From Moraxella nasovis (GTDB lineage: Bacteria > Pseudomonadota > Gammaproteobacteria > Pseudomonadales > Moraxellaceae), in the NCBI RefSeq assembly GCF_022701215.1, contig NZ_CP089976.1:1-32000 (forward strand): a stretch of DNA of 32,000 nucleotides. The letters run 5' to 3'. The position numbers and the translations under genes were made by a program. Below are positions 1,533 through 17,019 of the stretch, in pieces (the stretch's first letter is position 1; each line of letters begins with the position of its first letter). Below the pieces are notes generated by a model. The model was given only the letters and a program-made list of their open reading frames with translations. It was not told where the DNA came from and did not search any database.

Positions 1533-1707
1533 TGAGTGTAAGTTGGAACTTATGGCAGATGATGCACTGTAATATGTTACAAAATTAATCTAACTTATTA
1601 TAAAATAAGCAAAAAATTCATTTAAAACTAATTGAATTTTCATTGCTTAACAGTGGGGGATAAGGCACTTTATCTGCATGCTTAATTGGTTATTTAATTT
1701 GTTATTT

Positions 1708-1765
1708 ATAAAAGGGGTTAAACTTAAGCTGGCTTGATAAAAGGGGTTAAACTTAAGCTGGCTTG
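1708..1765. repeat. 29-bp perfect tandem duplication
   Basis: ataaaaggggttaaacttaagctggcttg occurs back-to-back at 1708-1736 and 1737-1765. The second copy plus the following cccctt forms an aagggg...cccctt hairpin. Confidence 0.9.
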
Positions 1766-1911
1766 CCCCTTATAAAATCATAACTAATAGTGATTTATTA
1801 ACAACTTCTTTGTTGAGAGTTTGAACTAAAGCAGAAAGTAACAGGTGCTTTTGTCACCAAGATCATCAAATGGTTTGGGGCGTAGAGACAAATTTTCAAT
1901 GTGCATTTTGC

Positions 1912-1950
1912 AAAAAAGTTGGGATTTGAACTAGATTAAGTTCAAATCCC
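1912..1950 (-). terminator. rho-independent-terminator-like hairpin (read on - strand)
   Basis: Perfect 11-bp stem gggatttgaac / gttcaaatccc (1921-1931 / 1940-1950) with an 8-nt loop. On the - strand it is followed by aac plus T6 (plus-strand A6 at 1912-1917). Confidence 0.4.
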
Positions 1951-2018
1951 ACACCATTCCCTAAGCACTTTAAGCTGATGAGAGGCGGTCCATAGTTAAA
2001 TCTAAACTTCCGTCTTTT
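1933..2018. repeat. copy 1 of a ~85-bp dispersed intergenic module
   Basis: Aligns by eye at roughly two-thirds identity with 3776-3860 (shared strings aaatcc..accatt..c...gctttaagc...aaactt.cgtcttt). Confidence 0.6.
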
Positions 2019-2501
2019 CCTAGGAATTTTGAAAGAAATATAAATGCCATTGAGAGAATGAAAGAATATTTTTTTGGATTTTTCAGGAATTGAAAACGCT
2101 AATAATAAAATACATATTGATGATTATGTAGATAAAAATATATTTGAACAATCCTTTTTATTCTTATATTTTTCAAAATATATTGGATAAATGAATTTCC
2201 TAGCACTCCTTGTGTTATTTGTATGAGCTTTCAAGAAGATGAAGTGGGTGCTTTTTCAACATTTTCCTTTCATAAATGTAGAGATAATGAGTATGTTGAT
2301 GACATAGATAACTTAGAAGATTATTCTCAGCCGATTTATTTAGAAATGATTAAGCCCAATTCAAGCAAAAGCAATCAAAAGCTTTTTAAGTAGAGCTAAA
2401 AAAAAATTGTTTGGCAAATAACATAAAAATACTGCACAAAGATGCAACAGAGAGGTATTAATCTTAAATTCCTAAATCAAAGAAAATTACCATAGGAGTC
2501 A

Positions 2502-2961
2502 TTGATGGAAAAATTATCAAAATTGAAAATAAATAAATCTTTAAATTTAAGTGCGATTAACTTTAATAGATTTAGTAGTAGCAAAGGTTGGATTGGCTAT
2601 TTTAAAGTCACTGACTTATCGGATGAAAATGCTATAAAAAATTCATCTAAAATAATGAGAGAATATTTTAATATTGATGATTTTTTTTATGATAAGTGCT
2701 TTATCTTATGAAAATTCTGCCGATATTTTGGAATTTGATAATTTTGAAATGTATGGAGATGTGTACAAAAAAGCAATTGAATACAGCTTTTTACAAAAAT
2801 ATGATGGGCTATTTATTGATTGCATAGAAAAGGAAATACCACTTCCATTAGAATTATTAAGACTTGATTTTGATAGCGATGTAATTTTGGATTTTTGTGA
2901 AGTTTTGATGAATTATTATTTTACCCCCTGTTATTGGTCAAGTGTGTTTTTTAATCAATAA
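2502..2961 (+). pseudogene. very AT-rich immunity-like ORF, frame broken at a T8 run
   Basis: ORFs 2502-2711 (frame 3) and 2674-2961 (frame 1) overlap at T8 (2681-2688). Removing one T joins ...NIDDFF to ISALSYENSADILEF. More frame-broken coding-like sequence follows to about 3110 (..LNIALYPHDDIGYGCISLDN). Confidence 0.3.
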
Positions 2962-3211
2962 AAAACTTAACATTGCTTTATATCCACATGATGATATTGG
3001 CTATGGCTGTATTTCATTGGATAATTAAACTCATAGCAAAGAAGTTTTATATGATTTTTTAAAATTTTGTGATAATAATGCGAATTTTAGATCTGTTTTT
3101 TGATGGGTGTAACATGGAGTAATGACATAGTCTAAATAAGCAAGCTACCTTAAAATACCCAAATAGCAATTTTGGTAAAATGTGGATGGCGCAAATTAAG
3201 GAATGTAACAA

Positions 3212-3406
3212 ATGTCATCTGTTATCATTAGTATATTGAAGCAAAATAGAATGATTGGATATCAAAAGGATAGACCAATATATCAAGCTATTGATAGTCA
3301 AGTTGGTTCAAAAACTGGGGCTGTCTTAGATGTTTTTGGTGCAAAAGAAGCTATAGACAATCAGATTTTAGACCAAATTAACAATGGTGCGCAAGTGATA
3401 GCATGA
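3212..3406 (+). CDS. small hypothetical ORF (possible remnant of a toxin tip)
   Basis: 64-aa ORF whose stop overlaps the next start (ATGA). No recognisable motif. Confidence 0.2.
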   Translation: MSSVIISILKQNRMIGYQKDRPIYQAIDSQVGSKTGAVLDVFGAKEAIDNQILDQINNGAQVIA

Positions 3407-3585
3407 ATAATTTAAAAAATGAAAAAATATTGACGCTGTCGATGATTGTTATTAATTTTATTTTATCAATAACCGCATCTATTGATATGAAAGAACCATA
3501 CTTTTTTAATTTCAAAAAAAATAATTATTTGTTTTATTGGTTTGGTTGTATTTTCATATCCTATAAAAGATTTTATTTTTGGTAA
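3403..3585 (+). CDS. small hydrophobic protein (immunity-like)
   Basis: Hydrophobic stretches ILTLSMIVINFILSITASI and YLFYWFGCIFISY. Further hydrophobic coding-like sequence lies out of frame up to about 3700. Confidence 0.25.
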   Translation: MNNLKNEKILTLSMIVINFILSITASIDMKEPYFFNFKKNNYLFYWFGCIFISYKRFYFW

Positions 3586-3775
3586 ACAATTTTTATCATA
3601 TACAACCATTAAAAAGAATGATTCTAAGTTCACTAGGACTTCTGGGTTGGTGTGGTGTTGTATTATGTATATATCTATTTTATATGCATGTTTTAAAATT
3701 GTAATTTATTAGGCTATAGACTAGCAAAAAACTGATGGGTCAGAAACAAGATATAAAAGCAAAAGGGGCTGTATT

Positions 3776-3860
3776 AGATTAGCCTTAAATCCTGTACCAT
3801 TTTCCAGGTGCTTTAAGCCAATTACAGCTAAGCCTAGTCAAAACGAAACTTTCGTCTTTA
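3776..3860. repeat. copy 2 of the ~85-bp dispersed intergenic module
   Basis: Homologous to 1933-2018. An imperfect hairpin aaggggct..agcctt (about 3764-3786) spans its left end, with a T-rich tract after it on the - strand. Confidence 0.6.
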
Positions 3861-4050
3861 AAATGTTATAGTCATTGACAAACATTCTAACATCATATTT
3901 CTTATCAAAAAAGGAAAATAGCTATGGCAATTAATTTAAGCTGTTACACCACAAGAGATATTAATGAAGTTTTGGAAATTAATAAAAAAATCTCTAAAAT
4001 GGTAAAGCAACAAAATCATTAGAACATTTGATAAAAATGGTGAATAAGAA

Positions 4051-4407
4051 ATGAATATACTGACATTATATATCTCAAAAAATAATCAAGATTGCTTTGA
4101 GGAATTTTTAATGATTTTTTGTGAGAAAATAAATAATATTTTTTATTACAATGATTTTTATATCGATGTTAATGAATACATCTTGAATGAATTGGATTAT
4201 GATGAAATTATAAATATTAAAAACCATATTAATGATTTTATCGCTTATTCAATTGTTTGGAATAATCTACATTCACTATATGATTTATTAAAAAAAATAA
4301 ACTTAGATATAAGTTTTTTGATTGATAATGATAACGAAGGAGTCATTAAAAATGATGATTTTATTTCAATGAGTCTTGATGATTTTGCCAAATGGGTTAG
4401 ATTTTAG
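4051..4407 (+). CDS. orphan immunity-like protein (acidic, very AT-rich)
   Basis: 118-aa ORF rich in Asn/Ile/Asp that ends 20 bp before the start of a cdiA-CT fragment. Position and composition are typical of cdiI-type genes. No family motif recognised. Confidence 0.35.
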   Translation: MNILTLYISKNNQDCFEEFLMIFCEKINNIFYYNDFYIDVNEYILNELDYDEIINIKNHINDFIAYSIVWNNLHSLYDLLKKINLDISFLIDNDNEGVIKNDDFISMSLDDFAKWVRF

Positions 4408-4429
4408 AGATGATTTAGACGGCACTTGA

Positions 4430-5859
4430 ACAAAGAAAAGCCAAAAAATAGAAAACAACCTACGCCTATTTGATGGTATCACATCTGCCCTATATGCACC
4501 GAACGGCAATGGCATCACAGGCGACATCACAAGAGCATTAAACCCAGAACTTTCCTATCAAATCGGACAACACTTTAAACAAAATAACACCGAAGGTACT
4601 GCCCCACACATTTTATCCCATGCCCTACTAGGAGCTACCACAAGCTATGCGACAGGTAATAATGTAGCACTAGGAGCATTCAATGGAGCAACCAGTGAAA
4701 AAGTCGCCCCTGCCTTATCCAAAATCTTATATGACAAAAACCAACCTAGTAAGCTCACCCAAGAACAAAAAGACACCATCACAAGCATCATAAGACTAGG
4801 TACAGTTGCTACTGCTTACACCACCACAGGCGATGTGGCAGAAGCAGTAAATGCAAGTGAAGTGGGGAAAGTGAGATTGGGAAAGTGAGATTGGGAAAGT
4901 GAGATTGGGAAAGTGAGATTGGGAAAGTGAGATTGGGAAAGTGAGATTGGGAAAGTGGGGGTGGAGAATAATGGGGGTGCAAACCCTGTGCAAAAAGGTA
5001 GAGCCTTAAATGCTCGTGCGTGCAGGAATGGGGATGTTAATGCTTGCAAAGTAAGAACCCTTGGTGACATCATTAAGGAAAATAAAAAAATATATACTGA
5101 TTGGTACAAGCTTATTGCCAGTTATAGGAGACATACAGGGATTTGCCGAAGCTGAGACGGCTAGGGATTATATTTTTGCGACCATTGGAGTTATACCTGG
5201 GGCAGGAGATGTTGTACAAAAAGGTAGAGCTGCCAAGATAGCATACGATACAGCCAAAACTAGAAATGACGTAAATGGCATGAAAAAAGCCATGCAAGAG
5301 GGCGTTGATGCTTTACGAGAAGCTGATGCTCAAAAACTACCCAACACACCCACTGTTAGCCAGCCTATGACTGGTGGGCAAGCTCAAAGACAAGTGCAAA
5401 ATGGACAAGCAGTGCCTATTGGATATACTAGAGATAGACAAGGAAGACTACGTGATGGTCGAGGAAGATATGTTAGTGATATTAATAATCCAAGAGTAGG
5501 TACAAATCTTTCTCGTCCTGACTTAAGGGTTGGTTTAAAAAGTCAAGTGATGGCAAATTACGAAATACTGCCAAATGGGGCTTATCGTCATAGAGTCACT
5601 CGACAAATAGTTCAACCCCCCCCCCATTGATTACGGTCATGCCTATGGTCGTGAACATAGGCGTTTGGTTTTAGCAGCACAACAAACCAATCTAACTCAA
5701 GCCCAATTTAATGATTTTGTTAATTCTCGTCCTGATTATTTTAGGCTTGAGAACAGAGCAGACAATCAAAGTCATCGCTATGAAAAACCTGGGAATGGTG
5801 AGTTAGAAGAAATAATTAAACACATTAATGAATTTAAGCAACAAAGAGGTATTAAATAA
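4430..5859 (+). pseudogene. cdiA: orphan cdiA-CT fragment: pre-toxin region, VENN, PT-TG-like segment, GH-E family HNH/EndoVII nuclease tip; interrupted
   Basis: Frame 2 is open from 4430 with no start codon and reads ..NNLRLFDGITSALYAPNGNGITGD..HILSHALLGATTSYATGNN..TQEQKDTITSIIRLGTVATAYTTTGDVAEAVNASEVGK. VGVENN follows in the same frame (VENN 4961-4972). Next come LLPVIGDIQGF..GVIPGAGD (frame 3) and IDYGHAYGREH..NSRPDYFRLENRADNQSH (frame 1, GH-E signature). Breaks are a TGA at 4886-4888 inside the tandem repeat and +1 shifts at A7 (5084-5090) and C10 (5616-5625). Confidence 0.8.
4865..4957. repeat. 14-bp tandem repeat, 6 full units plus a 9-bp partial
   Basis: The unit gggaaagtgagatt repeats at 4865, 4879, 4893, 4907, 4921 and 4935. 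A partial gggaaagtg lies at 4949-4957, 3 bp upstream of the VENN codons. Confidence 0.95.
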
Positions 5860-6386
5860 TGGCTTATGATATGAGTGGTGTAGAGATTTTAGAGGCTTTA
5901 CATGAAGGTGATTTTAAAAAATTAGAGTATCTTTTAAAAAAATACCCCCATAGAACTTTATTAGACATATCTAAAGAAATGAAAAGGAATTGGCTCCACA
6001 AAGTCGCCGATTCAATGAATGCCAATGAACCACCACTTATTACAATTAATTATCTCATTGATTTAGGTATCGACATCAACGCCCAAGACATCTACGGTAT
6101 GACCCCCTTGCACTACGCCATGCGTAGTCGTAATGCCGAAGTTGCTATTACTCTACTTGAAGCAGGAGCAGACCCAAATATTCCTAATATTAACGATTTA
6201 AGACCTTTATCAATGGTTGGTTACACCAAGGATAGATTGGATGTTTTAGAGCTGATGTTAAAAAAGGGTGGTAATGTTTTTAATATCATAAATGGTAATG
6301 AAACAATTTTGGAGAGTTGGTTGCCCAGTGATTACGCCGAACAATGGGAAAAAGATATTTATGAAATAATGAAACAATACTCTTGA
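5859..6386 (+). CDS. ankyrin-repeat protein, likely immunity partner of the GH-E nuclease tip
   Basis: Ankyrin consensus DINAQDIYGMTPLHYAMRSRNAEVAITLLEAGADPNIPN plus a second repeat. Its start overlaps the toxin stop (TAATG). Confidence 0.7.
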   Translation: MAYDMSGVEILEALHEGDFKKLEYLLKKYPHRTLLDISKEMKRNWLHKVADSMNANEPPLITINYLIDLGIDINAQDIYGMTPLHYAMRSRNAEVAITLLEAGADPNIPNINDLRPLSMVGYTKDRLDVLELMLKKGGNVFNIINGNETILESWLPSDYAEQWEKDIYEIMKQYS

Positions 6387-6862
6387 TAAATAGTTCTGGA
6401 TATGGAGCGATTAAAACCATTGACGATAGAGCGAATTACTTTGGGGCGATGTACGGATATACAGGACAACCTTGGTTTAGAGAGGCTGAAAAAGTTTCAA
6501 GGAATGGTTTAAGTGGGTATAAGTATTCCTTTGGGAATGGGATATCAGATGCAGTGGGTCCACCATTAAATAAATGGAGAGATGAGGCAGGTGCGGTAAT
6601 TATGAAAAATGCAAAATCAGAGTTTCAATATATTTATCAAAATTACCGCAATGAAACCAATAGTTGGAGTTACAGAAGATTGGTTAAGGAGCAAAAAGAC
6701 CCGAAATTGCAGGCAGTGCATGAGAAATGGTATAAGCAATGGAATATAGTCGTTCAAAAAATTGCTGACAAAGAGGCAGGTGGAAAACTATTAAACCCCT
6801 ACCATAGAATTGATAAGGGGTGCAAAGGTATGCCTGAAGTGGCGGAGTGTAAAATAAAATGA
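6383..6862 (+). CDS. unassigned 159-aa protein, candidate orphan toxin tip
   Basis: The frame opens only at 6365, so there is no delivery domain or signal peptide. Trp/Tyr/Lys-rich. The stop overlaps the start of a membrane protein (ATGA at 6859). Confidence 0.35.
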   Translation: MINSSGYGAIKTIDDRANYFGAMYGYTGQPWFREAEKVSRNGLSGYKYSFGNGISDAVGPPLNKWRDEAGAVIMKNAKSEFQYIYQNYRNETNSWSYRRLVKEQKDPKLQAVHEKWYKQWNIVVQKIADKEAGGKLLNPYHRIDKGCKGMPEVAECKIK

Positions 6863-7272
6863 TTCCTTTTGGTTTTACTTGGACTTACATTATTTGGATG
6901 CTATGGATTTTTTTCGGACAAATTATTGTTTGTATTATTTATTTTATATTGTCTTTATATTTGATTTTTAGTAAAAAATTATTTTTAGTAAAAAACTTTA
7001 ATAAAATTATCTATTTTACTGGTCCTTGTTGTTTATTAATCCTAAGCTTACTGTGTATTAATCATTCTGACCTATTAATCTCAATCAGCAATACAGATCT
7101 AAAAGAGATATTATTTCAATTGGGAGTCTGGGGTTCAACTCTACCATTTGTTATTATTTGGATGTGCTACCAATATTATGGGAAAAAATCTCATAAACTT
7201 GAAATGTTTTTTTACATTATTAGCTGTATTTTTATTTTGTTGTCCAGCATTATATTTGTATCTTTGATCTGA
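6859..7272 (+). CDS. multi-pass membrane protein, candidate immunity protein
   Basis: Four hydrophobic segments (WTYIIWMLWIFFGQIIVCIIYFILSLYLIF, IIYFTGPCCLLILSLLCI, GVWGSTLPFVIIWMCY, FFYIISCIFILLSSIIFVSLI). Translationally coupled to 6383-6862. Confidence 0.5.
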   Translation: MIPFGFTWTYIIWMLWIFFGQIIVCIIYFILSLYLIFSKKLFLVKNFNKIIYFTGPCCLLILSLLCINHSDLLISISNTDLKEILFQLGVWGSTLPFVIIWMCYQYYGKKSHKLEMFFYIISCIFILLSSIIFVSLI

Positions 7273-7281
7273 TAAGGTCAA

Positions 7282-7620
7282 TTGTCCATCCAAACAATGC
7301 CTAGAAATACAGGTCAACAAAGCAGTGTTGGAAAGTCTGTTAATGCCGCAGGTGATGAGGGTGGGCATCTAATTGCTAGCGCACTCGGCGGTTCAGGTGA
7401 TAGAATCAACCTAGTACCCCAAGCACAAACACTTAATAGAAGCGACTGGAAGAAGATGGAAAATGAACTCGTAAGAGAGCTAAAAGCAGGTAAAAAAGTG
7501 ACTATCAAGATAGATGTGAGCTATCCAGCGACATCTACAAGACCAAATAGGTTTTACGTTACCGCAACCATCAGTCATAATGGAGAAACAGAAGTGAGAA
7601 GATTCCCTTTTTCACAATAA
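7282..7620 (+). CDS. orphan nuclease toxin tip, Endonuclease_NS_2 (YeeF/EssD-like) type
   Basis: DEGGHLIASALGGSGDRINLVPQAQTLNRSDWKKMENEL matches the GHLIA..GG...NLVPQ...N...W..ME signature as recalled. There is no ATG (TTG only) and no upstream delivery region. Confidence 0.6.
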   Translation: MSIQTMPRNTGQQSSVGKSVNAAGDEGGHLIASALGGSGDRINLVPQAQTLNRSDWKKMENELVRELKAGKKVTIKIDVSYPATSTRPNRFYVTATISHNGETEVRRFPFSQ

Positions 7621-7639
7621 ACTTTTGGAGGAGTTATCT

Positions 7640-8032
7640 ATGGAAAGTACACTAGGTGCAATTTATCAAAAAATAGCTAGTGATTTATTGAATTGCAATG
7701 TTAATCAAAAGTGGGACAAGTTGGTTTTAACATCAGATATTTTAAAACATAATGCCAGCTCTATCACATTTTGCGAATACCACAAAAATATAGCAAGCGA
7801 TGTGGATATTGAATTTGATACAATTTTTTCTATTAATGATTCGCTTGTTGAGTTAAGAGATGTTTTGCTAGATGGACTCGGTCATCGCATATGGGGGCTT
7901 GTTTTTACTCTATATCCCGATGGAAAATTTGAAATAGAATACGATTACAATAAGCCTGAAGATTATGAAGAAACAGATGGCATTATCACGGCTGAAGAAA
8001 TAAGTGACAGTCTGCAAAATCTATTTAAATAG
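7640..8032 (+). CDS. YezG/EssI-like (DUF600-type) immunity protein
   Basis: RBS ggaggag at 7627-7633 and ATG at 7640. Pattern AIYQKIASDL..KWDKLVL..(acidic)..IWGLVFTLYPDGKFEIEYDY resembles DUF600 immunity proteins. It lies directly after the nuclease tip. Confidence 0.55.
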   Translation: MESTLGAIYQKIASDLLNCNVNQKWDKLVLTSDILKHNASSITFCEYHKNIASDVDIEFDTIFSINDSLVELRDVLLDGLGHRIWGLVFTLYPDGKFEIEYDYNKPEDYEETDGIITAEEISDSLQNLFK

Positions 8033-8109
8033 CTATAAAATCAACCAAGTCTAAAGGTAAAATTTATTTTTAAAATACAATTGTATGGGCTTGGTTAACG
8101 ATAGGATAA

Positions 8110-10503
8110 CCACCATGCCCCACCCAAACCCCCCTTACCACAGCACTCACTACAGCTTTACTGTTAAGCTGCGGTGCTGCATGGGCGAATGGGTCTTTGA
8201 TTGTTGGTGGCACCACTCCAAACGCCAACCACCTGCAAGTCACCCATCAATCAGGCATCCAAGCCAATACATCAACACTCACCGTAGACGGCAAAGGTAT
8301 CTTTACAGGTGGTTATCTGCTTACCACAGATGAACAAGGCAACCAAACTAACTTTAAAGGTGGCATTATCACCCAAGATATGCAAAACCACCTTACCTAT
8401 GACGGCAGTGCAAATAGCATCGGCATCGCAGTCAGTGGCAAAGGCATCTCACCAACAAGCCTAGGCTATGGTATAATAGACCCCACTCATCAAACCAGCA
8501 CTACCTACTCTGCTGTAACAGGACAAGCAGGGCAGGCTCATGCCACCATCAAAGACAAAGACAGTCTTAATCAAACGCTACAAAACAGCTTTGATGAACA
8601 AGCATTTAATAGGGAGCTTGGGCTACAAACTCAAATCAGTACAGAGTTTGGTAGGCAAGCTCCGAGGGTGGTGGCACAGTTTAGTCAAAACCAAATCAAT
8701 AATATCCTAGAGCAACTTAATGACCCTAATTTAAGTCAAGATCAAGCAGAACAAATTCTTGATGAAGCCAAAAAATGGGATGAGGGTGGGATTTATAGTG
8801 TGGCACTGCATACTGCTATGGGTGCATTGGGTACAGGCTCTACTGAGGGAGCATTAGCAACAGGAACTGTAGCAACAATCGCTCCTAACATCCAAAAATT
8901 AGAAGATTATTTAACAAAACAACTGACCAAAGACAGCTCAAAAGAACAAGCAGACAAAGCCAGACAAACCGCCAAAGGCTTAATTTCTTTTGTCATGCTT
9001 GCCACAGGTCAAACAGCAGGACTTGACCCATCTAGTACCATGATGGCAACGAATGTGGAGATGAATAATCGGCAGTTGCATGGGCAAGAAAAGCAACTCG
9101 CCAGAGTTTTAGTTCAAAAAGCCAAACAAAAAGGGTTAAAAAGATCTGATGGTCAGTCTTATACACTTCAAGACATTGAAGATGCCTTACGCTGGGCAAA
9201 TAGCGGTAAGTATAAAGAGCGTTATGACAGTAATTCAAATGTAGCTATAAACAAATACAATGTGGCAAATGCCAACAAATTACTTTATGACAATGCCATA
9301 GGTGATGATTATAAAAAAGATGGGAAAAGATTGTGGAAAAGTTACTCTCAAGATGGTGTAACTGTCATGCGTCAGAACTTTAATAATATTAAAAAACCTG
9401 ACACAGAACTTATCAACCTTATCCAAAAACAAACCCCAAGTTATCAGTACACTTGGAACAAAGAACACATCAAAGGTTATCAAGCACCACCGAAAATCAC
9501 AACGCCCAGAAAAGTAGTTAAGGCACCAATTTATCCGCAGAGTGCTATGGATAGAAAAAATGCGACTATTAAGAGAAGTGGGGTTGATTTAAGTAGTTCT
9601 GCTAACATACAGGCAAAGTCTGATAAGATAATGAATGAAAAAGTCATGCCTGTTGTGCAAGTTGGAATTGGTGCTACCGAAGTGGTTGCAGGTAGTGCAA
9701 TGTGTACTACTGCATTAGGCTGTACAGCTGGCGTTGCCTTAATTACTAATGGTGTAGACAACGTAGCAACAGGTGGTTATAATTATGGCAAATCATTTAG
9801 CCAACAAACAAACTCAGTAGCACTTACCAAAGGGGTAGGGCTGTCTGAAAATACTGCTGCTAATGTTAAATTAGGGGTGGATTTGGCTTCGGGAGTTGGA
9901 GCGGGTAAAGCTGTTACTAAGACAGTTGGCAAAAGTACAGTAAGCAAAGTAGATGTTTCTAATAACCAAAGATTGCCTGATGTGTATGGTGATGGGGATT
10001 TGGGTAGTGTATTGGATGTGCCACCATATACTATAAGACAAGATAATAATTTTTATTCTGAAATTAATGAAAGAGGAAATCCTAAAGCTTATCTTGACAA
10101 AAATGGAAATCTCGTTCCAGCAAATGTAAATGGTAGGGGAACTATACAAACACATATTAGAGGTAGTAACCCTAGTGAAACACCTTATATATCTACAATT
10201 GATCCAAGCATTGTAGTTTCACCTAAAAAATATGCTAAACAACAAATTATAATTGATACTCAAAATTTACAAAAGGATATAGATAATGGTGTTGTTAAAG
10301 ATATTGAAATTGTTACCCCAAAGCAAATTATTTCTGAGTTGCAAGATAAAATAAATAAGGCACAAAATAGATATGATAAGAACCCATCTAATAAGAATCG
10401 CAATAGCCTAGATAGGGCAAAATCTGATTTAAAAAATGCGATGAGAGATGGAGAGTGTCTAATTAAAGGTATCGTCCCTTGTAATTATATTAAAAAAAAG
10501 TAA
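8110..10503 (+). CDS. cdiA: orphan CdiA C-terminal fragment (FHA-repeat end, pre-toxin region, VEMNN, about 477-aa C-terminal region with unassigned toxin domain)
   Basis: Frame 1 is open from 8110, with the first start-like codon a TTG at 8197. Reads FGRQAPRVVAQF and GIYSVALHTAMGALGTGSTEGALATG. The VENN variant NVEMNN is at 9052-9069. A Gly/Ala-rich hydrophobic segment follows (VVQVGIGATEVVAGSAMCTTALGCTAGVALITNG). The terminal domain reads ..GTIQTHIRGSNPSETPYISTIDPS..ECLIKGIVP. Confidence 0.75.
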   Translation, partial: PPCPTQTPLTTALTTALLLSCGAAWANGSLIVGGTTPNANHLQVTHQSGIQANTSTLTVDGKGIFTGGYLLTTDEQGNQTNFKGGIITQDMQNHLTYDGSANSIGIAVSGKGISPTSLGYGIIDPTHQTSTTYSAVTGQAGQAHATIKDKDSLNQTLQNSFDEQAFNRELGLQTQISTEFGRQAPRVVAQFSQNQINNILEQLNDPNLSQDQAEQILDEAKKWDEGGIYSVALHTAMGALGTGSTEGALATGTVATIAPNIQKLEDYLTKQLTKDSSKEQADKARQTAKGLISFVMLATGQTAGLDPSSTMMATNVEMNNRQLHGQEKQLARVLVQKAKQKGLKRSDGQSYTLQDIEDALRWANSGKYKERYDSNSNVAINKYNVANANKLLYDNAIGDDYKKDGKRLWKSYSQDGVTVMRQNFNNIKKPDTELINLIQKQTPSYQYTWNKEHIKGYQAPPKITTPRKVVKAPIYPQSAMDRKNATIKRSGVDLSSSANIQAKSDKIMNEKVMPVVQVGIGATEVVAGSAMCTTALGCTAGVALITNGVDNVATGGYNYGKSFSQQTNSVALTKGVGLSENTAANVKLGVDLASGVGAGKAVTKTVGKSTVSKVDVSNNQRLPDVYGDGDLGSVLDVPPYTIRQDNNFYSEINERGNPKAYLDKNGNLVPANVNGRGTIQTHIRGSNPSETPYISTIDPSIVVSPKKYAKQQIIIDTQNLQKDIDNGVVKDIEIVTPKQIISELQDKINKAQNRYDKNPSNKNRNSLDRAKSDLKNAMRDGECLIKGIVPCNYIKKK

Positions 10504-10513
10504 GGTTTTTTTT

Positions 10514-11143
10514 ATGAGCTCAAAAGAAATTGATGATTTATTATATGGCATACCAACCACAGTGGACTACACTGATCTGCCAGAGGAGTTAGATGAAGAG
10601 GACATTCCATCAGAAAGAATCGATGGTTTATTAAATATAATAAATAAAGAGATGGATATTTATTTATTATTCAGAGCATCTTTCCTTTTAAACTCTTGGG
10701 GTATTGATGAGGGTTTTAATAAAATGACGGAGCTTTTATTTAGTGATAAAATTTCTTATTTGATAATAAATAATTTAAAATCATTAGATGATACATATAA
10801 GCATGCTTTATCGTCTTATATTAGTTATTGGGCAGTAAATTCCGATCATGGAAATGGTGAAAAAGCGAGAAAAAAAATATATCAACCAATAAAGATTATT
10901 ATTGACAAGGCTAACATTCAGCCATTTCAAATAAATTCTTTATTTTGGGTGATTAAGAAAGAAGGATTTTATGAATATATTCCTTTATTAAAGCAACATT
11001 TAACAAAATTGTTAAGATACCACATGAATATGTATTGGGAAATACATGACTTATCAAAATTTTTATTGGATTTAGGATTTTCTGAATTTATTAATAAAAT
11101 TTTTTACCAAAATAATAAGGGGCTATCTGATTATGGTTTATAA
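10514..11143 (+). CDS. immunity-like protein for the preceding CdiA-CT (unassigned family)
   Basis: 209-aa very AT-rich ORF that starts 10 bp after the toxin stop. Acidic N-terminus. No recognised motif. Confidence 0.45.
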   Translation: MSSKEIDDLLYGIPTTVDYTDLPEELDEEDIPSERIDGLLNIINKEMDIYLLFRASFLLNSWGIDEGFNKMTELLFSDKISYLIINNLKSLDDTYKHALSSYISYWAVNSDHGNGEKARKKIYQPIKIIIDKANIQPFQINSLFWVIKKEGFYEYIPLLKQHLTKLLRYHMNMYWEIHDLSKFLLDLGFSEFINKIFYQNNKGLSDYGL

Positions 11144-11497
11144 GTATATTTAAAACAAGGCAAAGTAAATAAATATGGTGGCACTAGTAGTTATTCATTT
11201 TTTAGAACTCTTTGATGTATCCACAGATAGTAGGGCTTTATCTCCATAAACCAGTTTGAGTATCAAAGATAAATATACTTTACATTATTAATATCCTACA
11301 CCGCCTTTTCCAACATAAATCAAGGCAAAAAAAACAAGACGGTAATTTATTAAAATGTATCAAAAAAAAAAATTGGAGATAGTAATGACCAAATATGTAC
11401 ACATTAAGAGATTTTCTTCCTGATTTGGTACAGTGCAAGAAGATGATTTACTCTACTTCTTATCAGAAGAAGATTATGACACCTATTATAATTGTGA

Positions 11498-11962
11498 TTT
11501 AAAAACCACCACCAAACAAAATCAGGCTTCATCAAAGGCAGTGGGGTAAGTATTACCATCGGTTCTCAAACAACCGACAACCAAAACAGCACCATTGGCA
11601 CCAATGATGGCAATGTGGTTTTGAGTGCAGGGGGTGATTATCGGCAAATAGGCAGTCATGTCAGTGCTTATATGGGGTCTGATACAGGCAAAGGGATAAA
11701 AGATAAAAAGCGTGGCAATGTCATCATTGATGCCAAAAATATTGATGTCATCAACAATATAACGACAAAAGACACCACCGAAAGCACTTACTTTAAACAA
11801 AAAGGGCTTACTGTCAGTGCTTCTAATAGCTTGGTAGATGGTGCCAAAGGCGTACAAAACATGGTAGAAGCTGGCAAGGAGGTGCAATCAGACAGGGCTC
11901 GTGCCATGGCCGCTCTAAGTGCTGTCAGCAAAGTCCTTTGCTTTTTTAAATTGTTTGCGTGA
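11498..11962 (+). pseudogene. cdiA: internal cdiA/fhaB-type fragment, truncated at both ends
   Basis: GFIKGSGVSITIGSQTTDNQNSTIGTNDGNVVLSAGGDYRQIGSHVSAY..GNVIIDAKNIDVINN..KQKGLTVSASNSLVDGAKG is typical FHA-2 repeat sequence. No start codon. Similarity is lost near 11935-11945, where - strand island sequence begins. Confidence 0.7.
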
Positions 11963-12121
11963 TTTAGCATGAGTTTTATTGATGGCTTGAATGGTTTGAG
12001 AATGTAAACCAAGTAATTCACCACTGCCTTTGGTGTAAATAGCTACTAACATCAACTAAGCTTACAGGCAGTAAACTGAAGCTCTCTGTGATGCTGGGTG
12101 GTGTGTTAGGCTTACACATTG

Positions 12122-12194: not shown

Positions 12195-12711
12195 TCAAGT
12201 GCTTGGGATGTCTTTAATGGCGTAACACAAGCGCTTGGGGTAGTTTGATAGCTCTGTGAAGCCGTATTTTTCATAAAAGCGTTGAGCGTTTTCATCTTTT
12301 GCGCCTCATCATTTCTGATAGTCGTTTGGCGGTTTGCATAGCATGTAAAAGTAAATCAGCACCCAATCCTTGCCCTTTGCATGCTTTATCAACTGCAAGC
12401 CTTCCAAGTAGTACGCACAGAATAGGGCTGTGGGGGCTTTGACGTTTCAATCTCTCACTATCATCGCGTTGTATGATATGGCACGCTGATAAGGTGTAAA
12501 AACCTGTCAGGCGGTTATTGTCTATTGCGCCATAAATAACCGTTTCATGACGTTTTAAAAGTTGGCTCGCCTGCTGTTTGATAAAACGATTTAATGGTAG
12601 GACACCGCAATCAAAAGTTGTCTTATCGTGGTTTCGGGTGAGCTTAGTTATCAACACGCACAAAACCCCTAATTGTGTACAATTATAAGAAATACGACAA
12701 ACAAAGTCCAA
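12195..12711 (-). pseudogene. TacT-like GNAT acetyltransferase toxin, degraded
   Basis: HDKTTFDCGVLPLNRFIKQQASQ..GFYTLSACHI..LGRLAVDKACKGQGLGADLL, then the frame is lost. The expected C-terminus GAKDENAQRFYEKYGFTELSNY lies in another frame and several residues appear deleted. Only a garbled DUF1778-like remnant is visible upstream (12720-12880). Confidence 0.6.
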
Positions 12712-12886
12712 TGATTGTTTAAAAGTAAAACTGCTTGTAATAGTAAATTGACGAAGGATTCAACAAAAAAAATCTAGCATAAGAAAGTGTCGTTGGACTA
12801 ATCGGTTTGATGTTTTTTGTCTTGCGCCTTCTTGGCGAACTATTCGGAAATTCCGAGTAGTTAAGCTCATTTATTATCAACAATTT

Positions 12887-13255
12887 TCAACATACCATTG
12901 CTCGCATAGCTCTTCGGCTTGATCCACCAACTCCTGTAGAATGCCATTAGCATCGAGTCCCGCTTCATCCAAAAACCCCCAGGCTTTACCACTTTGTTCT
13001 TCTGCACCAAAGCGACTGGCAAAAGTCATATCAAAACCATTGTATGCTTATGTTATTTTCGCGGTCATCATTTTGCAGTTCAATATAGAATTGCTTGGTT
13101 TTGCTACCATCATTGATTGCGACATCAAAATAGACACAAAAGCCGTCCACTCCTATCTTTGTGGGATAGTTACAGCCTTGGCCATAGATTTCTACGACTT
13201 CTGCTAAGGTGTCTACGATATTGGTAGAAAGTATTTTAAGGGGTTTGTGTGCCAT
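12887..13255 (-). pseudogene. small acidic hypothetical protein, frame broken near 13030-13045
   Basis: MAHKPLKILSTNIVDTLAEVVEIYGQG.. continues in another frame as AYNGFDMTFASRFGAEEQSGKAWGFLDEAGLDANGILQELVDQAEELCEQWY. No family recognised. Confidence 0.35.
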
Positions 13256-13311
13256 TCTTGGTCTCTGATGTTTTTACATGCTATTAAGTATAGGGGTTGT
13301 TGTTTGAGTCT

Positions 13312-14266
13312 TTAAATCTCAAAACATTCGCTAATTTGCGATAGTTTTGAGACAAAAAGGTCATCTAGATGGTCAGATAATGCTTGATGGAATTCATCTA
13401 AATTAAACCAATCTTCAAGTTTTGATATATTGGGCAATACGTCCCAATTAGGGCGGTATTCTGCTATTATGTGTGAGCGATGTTCATCTAATAGCTCTCT
13501 GACATTATCGCCTGGTTTTAAATCATTGACAAACTGCACCGCTGCTATGGCAATCAAGTCATAAATTTGCTGGGAATTATCAAGTACATATTTTGCAACA
13601 CGTTGCTTGGTGTTGAGCTCATATGTATCAACAAAATGCTTGATTTTTTTCAGCATTGTCATGAACAATATTGCAAAAATCATCATCAAGCCATACGCAG
13701 TTCTGCCAATTTAGGTCTTTAATAAGAACTGCAATGTCAAAATCATCACTTTGTAATTCCAAAGTATCCACAATCAACTGTTTTAGTAGGGGGTGTGACT
13801 CTTTTGCCGCATCTACTGCCATTTCAACAAAACCCAATTCATTTAAATTTTTGGCGGTGTAAGGTAATTCTGCATTTATGTATAGTTCAAAGAAAGGCTC
13901 TTGTTTTTTGTAACCAAGTTTAACCGTCTGTCTAACAAGAAATTGCAAGCCTGGCTCATAGTCATGATAAGCAAGTTCCATGTCCCAATCATATTTTTTA
14001 AGCTCATCGGTAAACTCATCATCAAGACCACCAGTAAGAAAGTCTCGTAATGTGGCACTCATACACCACCGACCAAAGCCGACAAAAGGATAGCTTATTC
14101 CGTCTTGGAGACCGTCTTTGAACTGTGATTTTTCAACCCAAAAACCATAAATGAAAGAATGTTGGTTTTCATCTAACCAAGTAAAAACTTTGGTTAGAGT
14201 TTCAAGAATTTGGGGGTTTTGTGTGGTTATGATTAAAGAACCATAAGCGTCGCTGATATTAGCCAT
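13312..14266 (-). CDS. acidic hypothetical protein (about 318 aa if the T7-run frameshift at 13644-13650 is corrected)
   Basis: ORFs 13628-14266 and 13312-13689 overlap at a homopolymer. One base change joins ..NIVHDNAEK to IKHFVDTYELN. RBS aggag precedes the ATG at 14266. The conserved leader lies upstream. Confidence 0.5.
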
Positions 14267-14370
14267 TTGTTATCTCCTGTTTAACGTTGATTAGATATAT
14301 ATAGAATAAAACAAGAGAAGAATAAACAAAAAGCAATAATATCTAACATAACCTAACAGCCGTTAGGCTA
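14267..14370 (-). promoter_or_regulatory. conserved leader, copy 1 (GCCTAACGG, pyrimidine-rich tract, TATATATCTAAT, RBS)
   Basis: The - strand reads TTAGCCTAACGGCTG..TTGCTTTTTGTTTATTCTTCTCTTGTTTTATTCTATATATATCTAATCAACG..AGGAG..ATG. The same architecture occurs at 19146-19251 and 20706-20838. Confidence 0.55.
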
Positions 14371-14406
14371 AGTAAATTATCATTCACGCCCGCATTCAGC
14401 TTTGTT

Positions 14407-14434
14407 AAAATCATCGTTACTTAGTAACGATTTT
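14407..14434 (-). terminator. hairpin with flanking A/T runs (bidirectional terminator-like)
   Basis: atcgttac tta gtaacgat (8-bp stem) flanked by aaaa and tttt, downstream of vapC. Confidence 0.4.
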
Positions 14435-14469
14435 AATATCTGTGCTGCCAAGCCTTCGCTGACAGTCTA

Positions 14470-14526
14470 GGCGGTGGGTGTGGCTTGCTTCTTATCTAAT
14501 CAACCGCCCAAGCCACAAGGAGTAAT
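14470..14526. repeat. 55-60-bp hairpin element, copy 1
   Basis: ggcggtgggtgtggcttgcttcTTATCTAATCAACCGCCCAAGCCACAAGGagtaatc, with stem gtggcttg/caagccac. It abuts the vapC stop. Confidence 0.8.
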
Positions 14527-14930
14527 CAGTTTTCTGTTCCAGATACCCAGTTCTCCACAGCCAAATCAAAACCTTCAAAATCTCGTTCGTTATTAGTAAC
14601 CAGCGTAAGATTTTGGCTGATAGCATGGCTGGCAATGAGCGTATCAAAACTAGCCTTGTGTTTTTTGCTTTGCATTATTTTACCAAAAATAACCGCCGCC
14701 TTGTCATCAAAGGGCAAAATAGTTATCATGCTTTGTAAGCGGTCAAAGATGGATTGTGATTGATGGATATTTAGTCCACGTTGCAACTCTGCCCATGTGA
14801 TTGCACTTATGGCGACTTCACCAACAAAACAACGGCTAAAATGCTCAACCACTGATGGCGGGGTATGTTTCATTAAATAAATGCATATGTTGGTGTCAAG
14901 CAAATACTTAGGTTGTATTACCATTGGCAC
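14526..14930 (-). CDS. vapC: PIN-domain toxin VapC
   Basis: KYLLDTNICIYLMK.. N-terminal PIN motif, later ..TLVTNNERDF. Overlaps the vapB stop. Confidence 0.85.
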   Translation of the reverse strand: MPMVIQPKYLLDTNICIYLMKHTPPSVVEHFSRCFVGEVAISAITWAELQRGLNIHQSQSIFDRLQSMITILPFDDKAAVIFGKIMQSKKHKASFDTLIASHAISQNLTLVTNNERDFEGFDLAVENWVSGTEN

Positions 14931-15136
14931 TCATTCTCCACAAGTTCGGCACGCTCAATATCTGCACCGATTTGACGGAGTAAGTGGGGCACTTCGCCCA
15001 AAGTTTTAACCGGTTCAATGATGACACAGCCATTCTCTTTGCGTAGAGAGACAGGGGTGTTTGCTCCAAAAGCCAGTGCTTTTGGTAAACGTACCGCTTG
15101 GCTGTTGCCAGAGACAAAAGGGATGGTAACAATCAT
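14918..15136 (-). CDS. vapB: AbrB/SpoVT-type antitoxin VapB
   Basis: FVSGNSQAVRLPKALAF is a typical SpoVT-AbrB antitoxin N-terminus. 72 aa, directly upstream of vapC. Confidence 0.8.
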   Translation of the reverse strand: MIVTIPFVSGNSQAVRLPKALAFGANTPVSLRKENGCVIIEPVKTLGEVPHLLRQIGADIERAELVENECQW

Positions 15137-15164
15137 TGTTAAGCTCCAAACTATGTATATCTTT

Positions 15165-15193
15165 AAGTATATACATAAAGATATACAAAGTCA
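15165..15193 (-). promoter_or_regulatory. vapBC-1 sigma70-like promoter overlapping a palindromic operator
   Basis: The - strand reads TTGACT-N17-TATACT. The inverted repeat gtatatcttta..taaagatatac spans the spacer and the -10 element, about 25 nt upstream of the vapB ATG. Confidence 0.6.
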
Positions 15194-15497
15194 ATGATTT
15201 TGCAATTTCACCACAAAAACCAGACTAGCTTTGTGAAGAACGGTAATTATTCATGGCGGAGGTAAATGCACTCTCAATCTCAGAAAAAAGCCATGTAGTC
15301 AAATGCACAACCGCAGATGGCTTCAATTGCAATGACCGTTAGGCTTACCACTATACAAATAATCAGCTTGCATTTCTAATCTATGTTATATTTTTTAATA
15401 ACTTTTGATTATTGTTTTTCGTTGTTTACTAATAGTTGAGTTATCAAACTTTTACTTGATAACTCAAAAAACCACTACATAAGCCATTAAAACTTAT

Positions 15498-15552
15498 GTG
15501 GTGGGGTGTGGCTTGGGTTTTTTATCTAATCAACCACCCAAGCCACGAGGGG
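15498..15552. repeat. 55-60-bp hairpin element, copy 2
   Basis: gtggtggggtgtggcttgggtttTTTATCTAATCAACCACCCAAGCCACGAGGgg, near-identical in core to copies 1 and 3. Confidence 0.8.
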
Positions 15553-15691
15553 TAGGCGTTTTGGTTTTAGGGTCTGTTGGAGTTTGTGTGCCATTGCCGA
15601 CACCATAATCATTAACCAATTCCGCAAAAATAGCAAAAGCAACATCGCTCATCATACGTTGTTCATAATCAAAACCATTTGGCACAGTGTT

Positions 15692-16153
15692 TCATGAAAT
15701 GGATTTATTGATGCCTATTACGAGACGATAAGGTTCATCGGTTGGCACAAAACCAAAGGTTTGATAATATTTCCAGGCTTTCATTTTTCGCATCGATTAC
15801 TACAAATGCCATACCGCTAAACAGAGAAAATTTTTTGATGCCTTTTAGGGCATCTGACAAGGCTTGTTTACTTAATCCTTTACCTTGATGATGAATATCT
15901 ACGCCAATACGACCAATTAAGATTGCTGGAATTTGCTTGGGATAGCCTTTAACTTTTCCAAATTCATTAAAAATGGTTATATTTGATAAAGTATAAAAGG
16001 CCAAATTTTATGATTGTCATCGACTAAAACATGAGTTCTAGCAATGCCTTTTTTGGCGTGTTGGCTTGCCATTGTGTGCAAATAGCGGTTAATGACTTCA
16101 TTGCCACAATCAAAATCCGCCTTGTCATGGTGCTTGCCCAATAGCTCAAACAT
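15692..16153 (-). pseudogene. TacT-like GNAT acetyltransferase toxin with two frame breaks
   Basis: MFELLGKHHDKADFDCGNEVINRYLHTMASQHAKKGIARTHVLVDD.. / ..AFYTLSNITI..IGRIGVDIHHQGKGLSKQAL.. / ..KAWKYYQTFGFVPTDEPYRL. The breaks lie near 16003-16009 and 15776-15790, both at short A/T runs. Confidence 0.7.
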
Positions 16154-16434
16154 TGATTTTCTCCCCTTTCATCATGCGTTCGCCTAATTCCAATAACTCA
16201 CGCATAAGGGGGGGTTGGAGATGGTGGGTTTTCTAGTAGCTCAATGATTTGTAAGGCTTGTTTTTCGGTCAATACTAAATTTGCACCGTCTGAATTTAAA
16301 CCGTGCTTATCCAGTTCTAGCCAAATATCATCGCTATTGGCCACACTTTGCAACAATTCATCGGTGGTAATGCCTTGTGCTTTGGCGGTCTCAATAATCG
16401 CTATGGCGGTTGCAGGTGGTAAATCTAAAATCAT
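16146..16434 (-). CDS. DUF1778 (TacA)-like antitoxin, frame broken at G7 run 16208-16214
   Basis: ILDLPPATAIAIIETAKAQGITTDELLQSV...LVLTEKQALQIIELLENPPSPTP. With one base change at the run the frame continues ..LMRELLELGERMMKGEKINV and ends in an ATGTTTGA overlap with the GNAT start. Confidence 0.6.
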
Positions 16435-16675
16435 CTATTTAATCTCCATTAATAATCAATCTTTAAAAGTTGTCATATTTTAAATGTTTGTTTTTCGCTA
16501 TAAGCCTTGCCATGTCTAGGGTGTGTCGGTTTTTTGTGATTTTGGTTTTGGGTTGGTTCTGTAAAGTTTTTTGGGTGTCGGATTTTTAAATCTTAGGGTA
16601 ATACCAGGGTGTTTACGCCTATGAAACAGACACATAAAAGCACCACAAGGGGGAATAACGGGCGTAAATGGGCAT

Positions 16676-16972: not shown

Positions 16973-17019
16973 TTTGTCAGCCCTTATTATCTTATGCCAT
17001 GACTTAACGCTCTGCGATT

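What the first reader, a model, noticed from the sequence alone, without database searches (positions are those of the whole stretch)
4865..4957. 14-bp tandem repeat expanded exactly at a VENN junction, silencing the downstream toxin in every frame
The unit gggaaagtgagatt occurs six times plus a 9-bp partial copy. Its first 9 bp equal the native flank. Deleting the six full units (84 bp) restores an uninterrupted ..NASEVGKVGVENN.. frame. Each unit contains TGA, and because 14 is not a multiple of 3 every frame meets a stop within three units (the first at 4886-4888). The expansion sits at the one position where conserved stalk meets variable toxin. It could therefore be a copy-number-dependent off switch, a recombination scar or a hotspot.
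Basis: seen in the sequence. Interest (0 to 1): 0.75.

Follow-up and report, generated by a model that had tools for sequence, protein, structure and literature searches.

The report
Slippage repeat in dead orphan toxin
A perfect 14-base tandem repeat really does interrupt a bacterial contact-dependent toxin cassette just before its VENN motif, but the cassette (Moraxella nasovis) was already silent and broken in other places. The repeat is therefore best read as a mutational scar made from the motif's own codons, not as a switch.

Summary
Positions 4865-4957 hold 6.6 perfect copies of GGGAAAGTGAGATT. Removing 84 bp restores ..NASEVGKVGVENN.., which then matches Pfam PT-VENN.

The off-switch reading fails on three counts.
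- The module is an orphan cdiA-CT fragment. Its frame opens at 4430 after a stop, with no start codon before 4835.
- Only zero copies reads through, so unit changes cannot toggle expression reversibly.
- The GH-E nuclease toxin downstream carries two further +1 homopolymer frameshifts (A7 at 5084-5090, C10 at 5616-5625).
Only the ankyrin immunity gene (5859-6386) is intact.

New finding: the unit is not foreign. Rotated, it reads TGAGATTGGGAAAG, the native codons of the "EIGKV" variant of the pre-VENN motif. The last unit plus GVENN (31 nt) is 100% identical to a native Moraxella oculi junction. The left flank (4858-4871) is a diverged "EVGK" copy.

The likeliest origin is a misaligned exchange between two junction variants, followed by slippage.

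The window is Moraxella nasovis. The deposit annotates the array only as a spurious antisense ORF. The unit was found in no other sequence searched, and copy-number variation could not be tested.

Verdict: an ordinary lesion with a modestly informative recombination footprint.

The parts
4430..4864 (+). 5' part of an orphan cdiA-CT fragment: the pre-toxin region homologous to the 3' part of Moraxella CdiA and to other orphan modules. The frame opens directly after the stop at 4427-4429, and no ATG/GTG/TTG occurs before 4835.
   Evidence: frame, start-codon scan. (no ORF of 50 aa or more listed here). (homology starts at ..QKIENNLRLFDGITSALY.., as in orphan modules of M. oculi, M. bovoculi and metagenome Moraxella). 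(mosaic 73% identity to the same-genome paralogue P0007).
4858..4871 (+). Diverged 'copy 0' of the repeat in the native register: TGAAGTGGGGAAAG, the codons ..(S)E V G K.. of the EV-type motif. It is 11/14 identical to the unit.
4865..4957 (+). Perfect tandem array: six units GGGAAAGTGAGATT plus a 9-nt partial copy. In the native register this is six units TGAGATTGGGAAAG at 4872-4955 followed by TG. Each unit is the codon string (G)AG ATT GGG AAA G(TG) of the EIGKV-type pre-VENN motif. The array places TGA in all three forward frames.
   Evidence: (GAGATTGGGAAAGTG is the native junction sequence in M. oculi L002/L003 and M. bovoculi L009).
4958..4972 (+). GGG GTG GAG AAT AAT = G-V-E-N-N, the VENN motif. 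Together with the last unit (4942-4972, 31 nt) it is 100% identical to the M. oculi native junction L002:1043-1073.
4973..5859 (+). Degenerate toxin region. It comprises a post-VENN segment shared with the P0007-type toxin (..QKGRALNARACRNGDVNACKVRTLGDI..), then a segment homologous to M. catarrhalis GH-E toxins (..KKYILIGTSLLPVIGDIQGF..), then a GH-E HNH/EndoVII nuclease domain. It is broken by +1 frameshifts at A7 (5084-5090) and C10 (5616-5625). The stop TAA at 5857-5859 overlaps the immunity ATG (TAATG).
   Evidence: PF14410, E 4.7e-13, on the corrected translation; alignment A1 with intact homologues P0001-P0006.
5859..6386 (+). Intact ankyrin-repeat immunity gene (175 aa), cognate to the GH-E toxin.
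   Evidence: Ank_2, E 2.3e-19. (the same toxin-then-Ank gene order in L006). (57% identity end to end with the L006 173-aa protein).
4816..5049 (-). Antisense ORF that runs through the array; the reverse complement of the unit has no stop in any frame. The public record annotates it as 'hypothetical protein LU293_00040' of Moraxella nasovis (77 aa). It is most likely an annotation artefact of the repeat.

Best explanation
The array is a private, non-functional slippage expansion inside a decaying orphan cdiA-CT/cdiI module of Moraxella nasovis.

**Shown.**
- The module is a promoter-less, start-less 3' fragment of a CdiA gene, kept next to an intact immunity gene.
- The repeated 14-mer is the codon string of the conserved pre-VENN motif in its 'E-I-G-K' variant (TGAGATTGGGAAAG).
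- The array is preceded by one 'E-V-G-K' variant copy.
- It is followed by a junction that is base-for-base identical to native junctions of other Moraxella.
- The toxin carries two more slippage-type lesions (+1 in A7, +1 in C10).

**Inferred.** The conserved, G-rich VENN-encoding DNA is where CDI modules exchange. A 14-nt out-of-register exchange or template switch between an EV-type and an EI-type junction used the short repeats AGTG / GGGAAAGTG. This produced GGGAAAGTG-AGATT-GGGAAAGTG, a 9-nt direct repeat with its two copies 14 nt apart (5 nt between them). Replication slippage between these repeats then amplified the intervening unit to six identical copies. The alternative order gives the same structure: an EI-type ancestor expands first, and its upstream flank is later converted by an EV-type paralogue.

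Because the toxin fragment is not expressed, nothing selected against the lesion. Only the immunity gene remains under selection.
For: **Array.** It is real and perfect.

**Orphan status.** The frame opens at 4430 after a stop, with no start codon before 4835. No promoter-like site lies in or just before the array, and the regional count equals that of shuffles. Homology to Moraxella CdiA and orphan modules begins at the same ..NLRLFDGITSALY.. point as in orphans L002 and L004.

**Unit is native codons.** GAGATTGGGAAAGTG is the junction sequence in M. oculi (two loci) and M. bovoculi. Window 4942-4972 equals L002 1043-1073, 31/31. Copy 0 is EV-type at 11/14. The chance that five arbitrary bases reproduce one of about five observed native variants is roughly 0.5% (own arithmetic).

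**Both variants occur together.** EV and EI variants are found within single CDI loci (L009: 889 EV, 10661 EI; L007/L008).

**Same-genome paralogue.** P0007 carries an uninterrupted NASEVGKVAVENN. It is about 90% identical on both sides of the array but only about 35-40% identical in the middle of the pre-toxin region, a gene-conversion-like mosaic.

**Only n=0 reads through**.

**Two more frameshifts.** They were verified against intact homologues and recover a GH-E domain.

**Immunity gene intact and syntenic**.

**General slippage background.** Other recent perfect tandem duplications occur in the same window, at 1708-1765, 27041-27073 and 31795-31849.

Against: - No EI-type donor junction was found in the window. 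The rest of the M. nasovis chromosome could not be read, so the proposed exchange partner is hypothetical.
- The order of events cannot be resolved.
- Only one assembly of this locus exists in the searched collections. Neither the copy number nor the homopolymer frameshifts are independently confirmed. If the two homopolymer frameshifts were sequencing errors, the array would be the only lesion inside the toxin frame, although the missing start would remain.
- None of the other 13 Moraxella VENN-type junctions examined carries any tandem array. The 'hotspot' idea therefore rests on a single case.
Confidence: 0.72

Rival explanations
1. Reversible phase-variation (contingency) switch. Gain and loss of 14-nt units by slipped-strand mispairing turns the downstream toxin on and off.
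For: A perfect multi-copy array whose unit length is not a multiple of three is the classical substrate for slippage. A C10 tract, the only G/C homopolymer of 8 or more in the 32 kb, lies in the same gene.
Against: Only n=0 gives read-through. n=1 frameshifts, and all n>=2 stop at the same TGA. An allele that had lost every inserted unit would keep only the 14-nt segment bounded by a 4-nt AGTG repeat, a much poorer substrate for re-expansion than the array. The fragment has no start codon, promoter-like site or signal sequence. Two additional frameshifts lie downstream.
Confidence: 0.03
2. Assembly or sequencing artefact. The array, or its copy number, and the homopolymer frameshifts do not exist in the organism.
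For: Only one assembly carries the locus, and the public record is the same sequence as the window. Both frameshifts sit in homopolymers, which are error-prone on several sequencing platforms.
Against: The array is 93 bp, shorter than ordinary read lengths, and perfectly periodic with clean unique flanks. Its hybrid EV/EI structure and the 31-nt identity to a native junction are not what assembler errors produce. Other genes in the window that contain A8-A11 or T8-T9 runs are not obviously broken.
Confidence: 0.08
3. Selected 'lock' or recombination modulator. The array is maintained because it prevents a hazardous toxin from being reloaded onto a full-length cdiA, or because it stimulates or blocks recombination at the VENN joint, for example through unusual DNA structure.
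For: The array sits in the conserved DNA island (24 nt identical between species that are about 52% identical in protein) where exchange is thought to occur (PMC3150448). It adds seven G3 tracts.
Against: No stable hairpin or G-quadruplex is predicted: MFE is 0 kcal/mol as DNA, z-score 0.49, no G4 over the array, and the energy model gives +2.6 to +5.2 kcal/mol for 11-nt loops. The feature is not conserved: 0 of 13 other junctions carry an array, and the unit is absent from the metagenome and viral collections. The toxin is independently inactivated, so a lock is not needed.
Confidence: 0.05

Closest known systems
Orphan cdiA-CT/cdiI modules downstream of cdiBAI (E. coli EC93/EC869, Dickeya, Yersinia; Poole et al. 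2011, PMC3150448)
   Same: It is a 3' fragment of cdiA that keeps pre-toxin homology and the VENN motif. It lacks translation initiation signals. A cognate immunity gene follows directly (TAATG overlap). It lies in an array with other toxin/immunity remnants.
   Different: The toxin part here is a pseudogene with three slippage lesions. No cdiB or full-length cdiA lies next to the array in the window; an OMP gene and a C39 peptidase gene lie upstream instead. I found no report of a tandem-repeat insertion at the VENN codons.
Neisseria meningitidis tpsC cassettes recombining with tpsA (Arenas et al. 2013, PMC3848433)
   Same: These are silent 5'-truncated cassettes that share sequence upstream of VENN with the expressed gene. 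Exchange uses short shared stretches of 5-23 bp. This matches the 4-9 nt repeats (AGTG, GGGAAAGTG) that flank the unit here.
   Different: Those exchanges are in register and yield functional chimeras. Here the inferred exchange was 14 nt out of register and yielded a dead allele, which then expanded.
Simple-sequence contingency loci of mucosal bacteria (Haemophilus, Neisseria, Moraxella phase-variable genes; own knowledge)
   Same: A perfect short tandem array within coding sequence, with a unit length that is not a multiple of three. Slipped-strand mispairing is the likely way copy number changes.
   Different: There is no expressible gene, no ON state other than complete loss of the array, and stop codons inside the unit. 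It works like a slippage-prone tract but fails the tests that define a switch.

Membership tests
Orphan cdiA-CT/cdiI module | Fragment homologous to the 3' (pre-toxin) part of CdiA, including the VENN motif | tested here: met
   PT-VENN PF04829 at 21.9 bits (cut-off 20.3) on the array-deleted translation. All 60 named homologues are Moraxella, many annotated as VENN pre-toxin proteins. Full-length CdiA genes with the same region occur in L007-L009.
Orphan cdiA-CT/cdiI module | Lacks translation initiation signals and a secretion signal | tested here: met
   The frame opens at 4430 right after a stop. The first ATG/GTG/TTG is at 4835, 10 codons before the array. No ORF of 50 aa or more is listed there.
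Orphan cdiA-CT/cdiI module | Immediately followed by a cognate immunity gene | tested here: met
   An ankyrin gene at 5859-6386 overlaps the toxin stop (TAATG). The same GH-E toxin plus Ank pair occurs in L006, with 57% identity end to end.
Orphan cdiA-CT/cdiI module | Located downstream of a cdiBAI cluster | tested here: inconclusive
   No cdiB or full-length cdiA lies in the 32-kb window. An OMP beta-barrel gene and a C39 peptidase gene lie upstream. Remnants of other modules occupy 2062-4004 and 6383-11962. The rest of the chromosome could not be read.
Orphan cdiA-CT/cdiI module | Toxin-coding part intact (the orphans tested by Poole et al. were functional) | tested here: not met
   There are three lesions: the 84-bp array with stops, a +1 in A7 at 5084-5090, and a +1 in C10 at 5616-5625.
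Phase-variable contingency locus (slipped-strand switch) | Repeat tract lies within the ORF or promoter of an expressible gene | tested here: not met
   There is no start codon, and no promoter-like site in or just upstream of the array.
Phase-variable contingency locus (slipped-strand switch) | Gain or loss of units reversibly toggles the reading frame between ON and OFF | tested here: not met
   A simulation of n=0..12 shows that only n=0 reads into VENN. All n>=2 stop at the same TGA.
Phase-variable contingency locus (slipped-strand switch) | Copy-number polymorphism among reads or isolates | not testable with these tools
   Only one assembly carries the locus. There were no matches in the metagenome or viral collections, and no reads were available.
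GH-E HNH/EndoVII nuclease toxin (PF14410) | Profile match above the curated cut-off, on an intact ORF | tested here: inconclusive
   The match (50 bits vs cut-off 25, E 4.7e-13) is obtained only on a conceptual translation with both frameshifts corrected. The ORF itself is broken.
G-quadruplex recombination initiator (pilE-G4-like) | Four or more G3 tracts with loops short enough to form a stable quadruplex | tested here: not met
   The loops are 11 nt. ViennaRNA with G4 enabled places no quadruplex over the array. The energy model gives +2.6 to +5.2 kcal/mol.

The most novel reading that the evidence does not exclude
The hybrid array (one EVGK copy, then six EIGK copies, then a junction identical to another species' native junction) is a preserved intermediate of cassette exchange. 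It would be direct physical evidence that the VENN-encoding DNA of CDI modules is a site of template switching or illegitimate recombination between modules, possibly with DNA taken up from other Moraxella. Such junction arrays might also vary in length among isolates and influence which cassettes can be reloaded onto cdiA.
Probability: 0.08. Interest if true: 0.55.

Novelty: new member of a known kind. Interest (0 to 1): 0.25.

Why it matters
As a switch it would have been a new way of regulating a contact-dependent toxin, but the evidence does not support that reading.

What remains is smaller. It is a clear example of how orphan CDI cassettes decay while their immunity genes persist. It is also a sequence footprint suggesting that the conserved VENN-encoding DNA exchanges between modules through very short repeats. 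That bears on the unsettled question of where cdiA and orphan cassettes recombine.

There is a practical point as well. The array creates a stop-free antisense frame, which the public annotation calls a hypothetical protein (LU293_00040). The true feature, an orphan toxin pseudogene, has no protein entry in the collections searched.

Tried and rejected
**Finding the locus elsewhere.**
- Exact look-ups of five window proteins and of P0007 and P0061 in the contig index all failed.
- The single genome-contig scan returned only relatives of 40-60% identity and not the source genome.
- Two metagenome scans found nothing: 1.64 units, and a back-translated DVAEAVNASEVGKV junction. A viral scan also found nothing.
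- Copy-number polymorphism and a genome-wide search for the unit were therefore not possible.

**Plasmid collection.** Megablast of both halves of the window gave no match.

**Functional readings of the array.**
- Promoter created by the repeat: no site in the array, and the regional count equals that of shuffles.
- Structured RNA: no Rfam match.
- Hairpin or G-quadruplex: none predicted.

**Foreign or dispersed element.** Rejected, because the unit is the native EIGKV codon string and occurs nowhere else in the window, in nine Moraxella loci, or in the collections searched.

**De novo origin of AGATT by point mutation.** Rejected as improbable (about 0.5%), given the exact match to an existing allele type.

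**Literature.** Searches for tandem repeats or slippage at VENN junctions found nothing relevant. The species description of M. nasovis is not held, so the sequencing platform is unknown.

Full report
**1. Observation.**
- Tandem Repeats Finder reports one outstanding array in the window: 4865-4957, period 14, 6.6 copies, 100% identity, score 186, unit GGGAAAGTGAGATT. I also read it directly.
- The unit occurs six times and nowhere else in the 32 kb, even with two mismatches. The expected count is 0.23, and no shuffle reaches six.
- It is by far the longest perfect tandem in the window.
- All three forward frames hit TGA inside the array. In the upstream frame the first stop is 4886-4888.
- Removing the six full units gives ..GDVAEAVNASEVGKVGVENNGGAN.. 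This restored peptide passes the Pfam PT-VENN cut-off (21.9 vs 20.3 bits).

**2. Source and context.**
- Four window proteins are exact members of Moraxella nasovis entries: the C39 peptidase UNU73337.1, LU293_00035, LU293_00080 and the Fic protein UNU73374.1. The chromosome is 2,028,236 bp, taxid 2904121.
- Window 1533-12000 is a degenerate array of CDI toxin/immunity cassettes:
  - remnants at 2062-4004, matching immunity and toxin genes of M. bovoculi and metagenome Moraxella loci;
  - the module studied here (4430-6386);
  - a toxin fragment and a membrane protein (6383-7272);
  - an Endonuclease_NS_2 toxin stub with a YezG-like immunity gene (7282-8032);
  - a 768-aa CdiA C-terminal fragment with a 'NVEMNN' motif plus a 209-aa partner (8197-11143);
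  - a further CdiA fragment (11615-11962).
- No cdiB or full-length cdiA lies in the window. An outer-membrane beta-barrel gene and a C39 peptidase gene lie upstream.
- Related Moraxella loci show the canonical layout of cdiB, a 2,500-aa cdiA, cdiI and orphans.

**3. The module is an orphan and is otherwise dead.**
- The frame carrying the pre-toxin region opens at 4430, immediately after a stop. It has no ATG/GTG/TTG before 4835, and no ORF of 50 aa or more is listed there.
- Homology to other Moraxella modules starts at ..NLRLFDGITSALY.., the same point at which orphans in M. oculi and a Moraxella MAG begin after non-coding sequence.
- Downstream of VENN, alignment with intact homologues (P0001-P0006, M. 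catarrhalis and relatives) shows two +1 frameshifts:
  - A7 at 5084-5090: A6 would give ..ENKKYILIGTS.., compare ..SRNKQYILIGTS..
  - C10 at 5616-5625: C9 would give ..QPPPIDYGHAYGREHRRL..
  -.
- With both corrected, the C-terminus matches the GH-E HNH/EndoVII nuclease family (PF14410, E 4.7e-13).
- The toxin stop overlaps the start of an intact ankyrin-repeat gene (TAATG at 5857-5861). The same GH-E-toxin/ankyrin pair occurs in L006, and the two ankyrin proteins align end to end at 57% identity.
- Hence the immunity gene is preserved while the toxin fragment has decayed.

**4. Why it is not a switch.**
- A simulation of 0-12 units shows that only n=0 reads into VENN. n=1 shifts the frame, and every n>=2 ends at the same TGA.
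- Even n=0 terminates at 5153-5155 because of the A7 frameshift.
- There is no promoter-like site in or before the array, no Rfam match, and no predicted hairpin or G-quadruplex.

**5. What the unit is.**
- This is the main new result. In the related loci the DNA at the junction reads GCT GAG ATT GGG AAA GTG GGG GTG GAG AAT AAT (A-E-I-G-K-V-G-V-E-N-N) in M. oculi (two loci). M. bovoculi has the same core.
- Rotated by seven bases, the window's unit is TGAGATTGGGAAAG, exactly that native codon string.
- The last unit plus GVENN (4942-4972, 31 nt) is 100% identical to M. oculi L002:1043-1073.
- The flank 4858-4871 (TGAAGTGGGGAAAG..S-E-V-G-K..) is a diverged copy in the same register (11/14).
- The structure is therefore [EVGK copy][EIGK copy]x6-TG-GGGGTGGAGAATAAT.
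- Both motif variants are common among Moraxella CdiA and orphan proteins and occur together within single loci.
A chance match is about 0.5% (my arithmetic).

**6. Evidence of exchange at this joint in this genome.**
- P0007 (UNU73955.1) is another orphan in the same chromosome and has an uninterrupted ..NASEVGKVAVENNGGANYMQKGRALNARACRNGDVNACEVRTLGDI...
- Against the window's module it is about 93% identical over the first 70 residues, about 35-40% identical in the middle, and about 91% identical again from 15 residues before to 35 residues after VENN. This is a gene-conversion-like mosaic.
- The window's toxin is itself a hybrid. The 35 residues after VENN belong to the P0007-type toxin family, and the rest belongs to the GH-E family.
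- The 24-nt string GGGAAAGTGGGGGTGGAGAATAAT is identical between species whose pre-toxin proteins are only about 52% identical.
- The literature proposes recombination at VENN-encoding sequences (PMC3150448). It also documents tpsA/tpsC exchange through shared stretches of 5-23 bp (PMC3848433).

**7. Mechanism (inferred).**
- The native sequence carries short direct repeats 14 nt apart (AGTG...AGTG) and overlapping G-rich motifs.
- A 14-nt out-of-register exchange or template switch between an EV-type and an EI-type junction would give GGGAAAGTG-AGATT-GGGAAAGTG.
- Slippage between the two 9-nt repeats duplicates exactly AGATTGGGAAAGTG. Further slippage among identical units then yields six copies.
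- The reverse order is equally compatible: expansion in an EI-type ancestor, then conversion of the upstream flank by an EV-type paralogue.
- All three lesions in the toxin are slippage-type. Three other perfect tandem duplications lie in the same 32 kb, at 1708-1765, 27041-27073 and 31795-31849. A general slippage background acting on an unselected fragment is therefore sufficient.

**8. Limits.**
- The unit was absent from nine Moraxella loci, from none of whose 13 VENN-type junctions any tandem array was found, and from the metagenome and viral collections.
- The only other occurrence is the public M. nasovis record itself. There the array is annotated only as an antisense 77-aa hypothetical protein identical to the window's antisense ORF, so it is the same assembly.
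- Copy-number heterogeneity, the reality of the homopolymer frameshifts, and the presence of an EI-type donor elsewhere in the chromosome could not be tested.

**9. Verdict.**
- The 'off switch' interpretation is not supported. The 'recombination scar' interpretation is supported in a refined form.
- It is an ordinary pseudogenising lesion in a known kind of element (an orphan CDI cassette), with a modestly informative footprint of misaligned exchange at the VENN joint.
- Interest 0.25.

Noticed in passing
window 5084-5090 and 5616-5625: Two +1 homopolymer frameshifts (A7 and C10) break the GH-E toxin downstream of VENN. C10 is the only G/C homopolymer of 8 or more in the 32 kb. They could be real slippage or sequencing errors.
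   Followed up: partly
window 4816-5049 (- strand): The reverse complement of the repeat unit has no stop in any frame. The public M. nasovis record therefore annotates a 77-aa antisense 'hypothetical protein' (LU293_00040, UNU73343.1) across the array. The orphan toxin fragment itself has no protein entry in the collections searched.
   Followed up: yes
window 4430-5090 vs P0007 (UNU73955.1, same chromosome): Identity to a paralogous orphan in the same genome is mosaic: about 93%, then about 35-40%, then about 91%, ending at ..TLGDI. The toxin is a hybrid of a P0007-type post-VENN segment and a GH-E toxin of the M. catarrhalis type.
   Followed up: partly
window 5402-5429: This is the best sigma-70-like site of the region (TGGACA-16-TATACT, 10/12). 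It lies inside the dead toxin, about 430 bp upstream of the intact ankyrin immunity gene, and might drive immunity expression. The overall count of such sites equals that of shuffles.
   Followed up: no
window 8197-11143: A 768-aa CdiA C-terminal fragment has 'NVEMNN' in place of VENN and a C-terminal region with no Pfam or NCBIfam match. A 209-aa protein, also unassigned, follows it. This may be an uncharacterised toxin/immunity pair.
   Followed up: no
window 2062-4004 and 11615-11962: These are short remnants homologous to immunity genes, toxin ends and the CdiA shaft of other Moraxella CDI loci. The cassette array is heavily eroded and has no adjacent cdiB or cdiA. An OMP beta-barrel gene and a C39 peptidase gene (1-1532) lie upstream.
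   Followed up: partly
window 1708-1765, 27041-27073, 31795-31849: Three other perfect or near-perfect two-copy tandem duplications (periods 29, 15 and 27). The 15-nt one is in frame (..SNGSTSNGSTS..) within the 501-aa ORF on the minus strand.
   Followed up: no
window 12292-25000: A cluster of mobile-element and addiction genes: a GNAT acetyltransferase, two PIN (VapC-like) toxins of which one has a MazE-type antitoxin, an IrrE/M78 peptidase, a serine resolvase, a Fic protein and a truncated MobA/VirD2 relaxase. There is no megablast match in the plasmid collection.
   Followed up: partly
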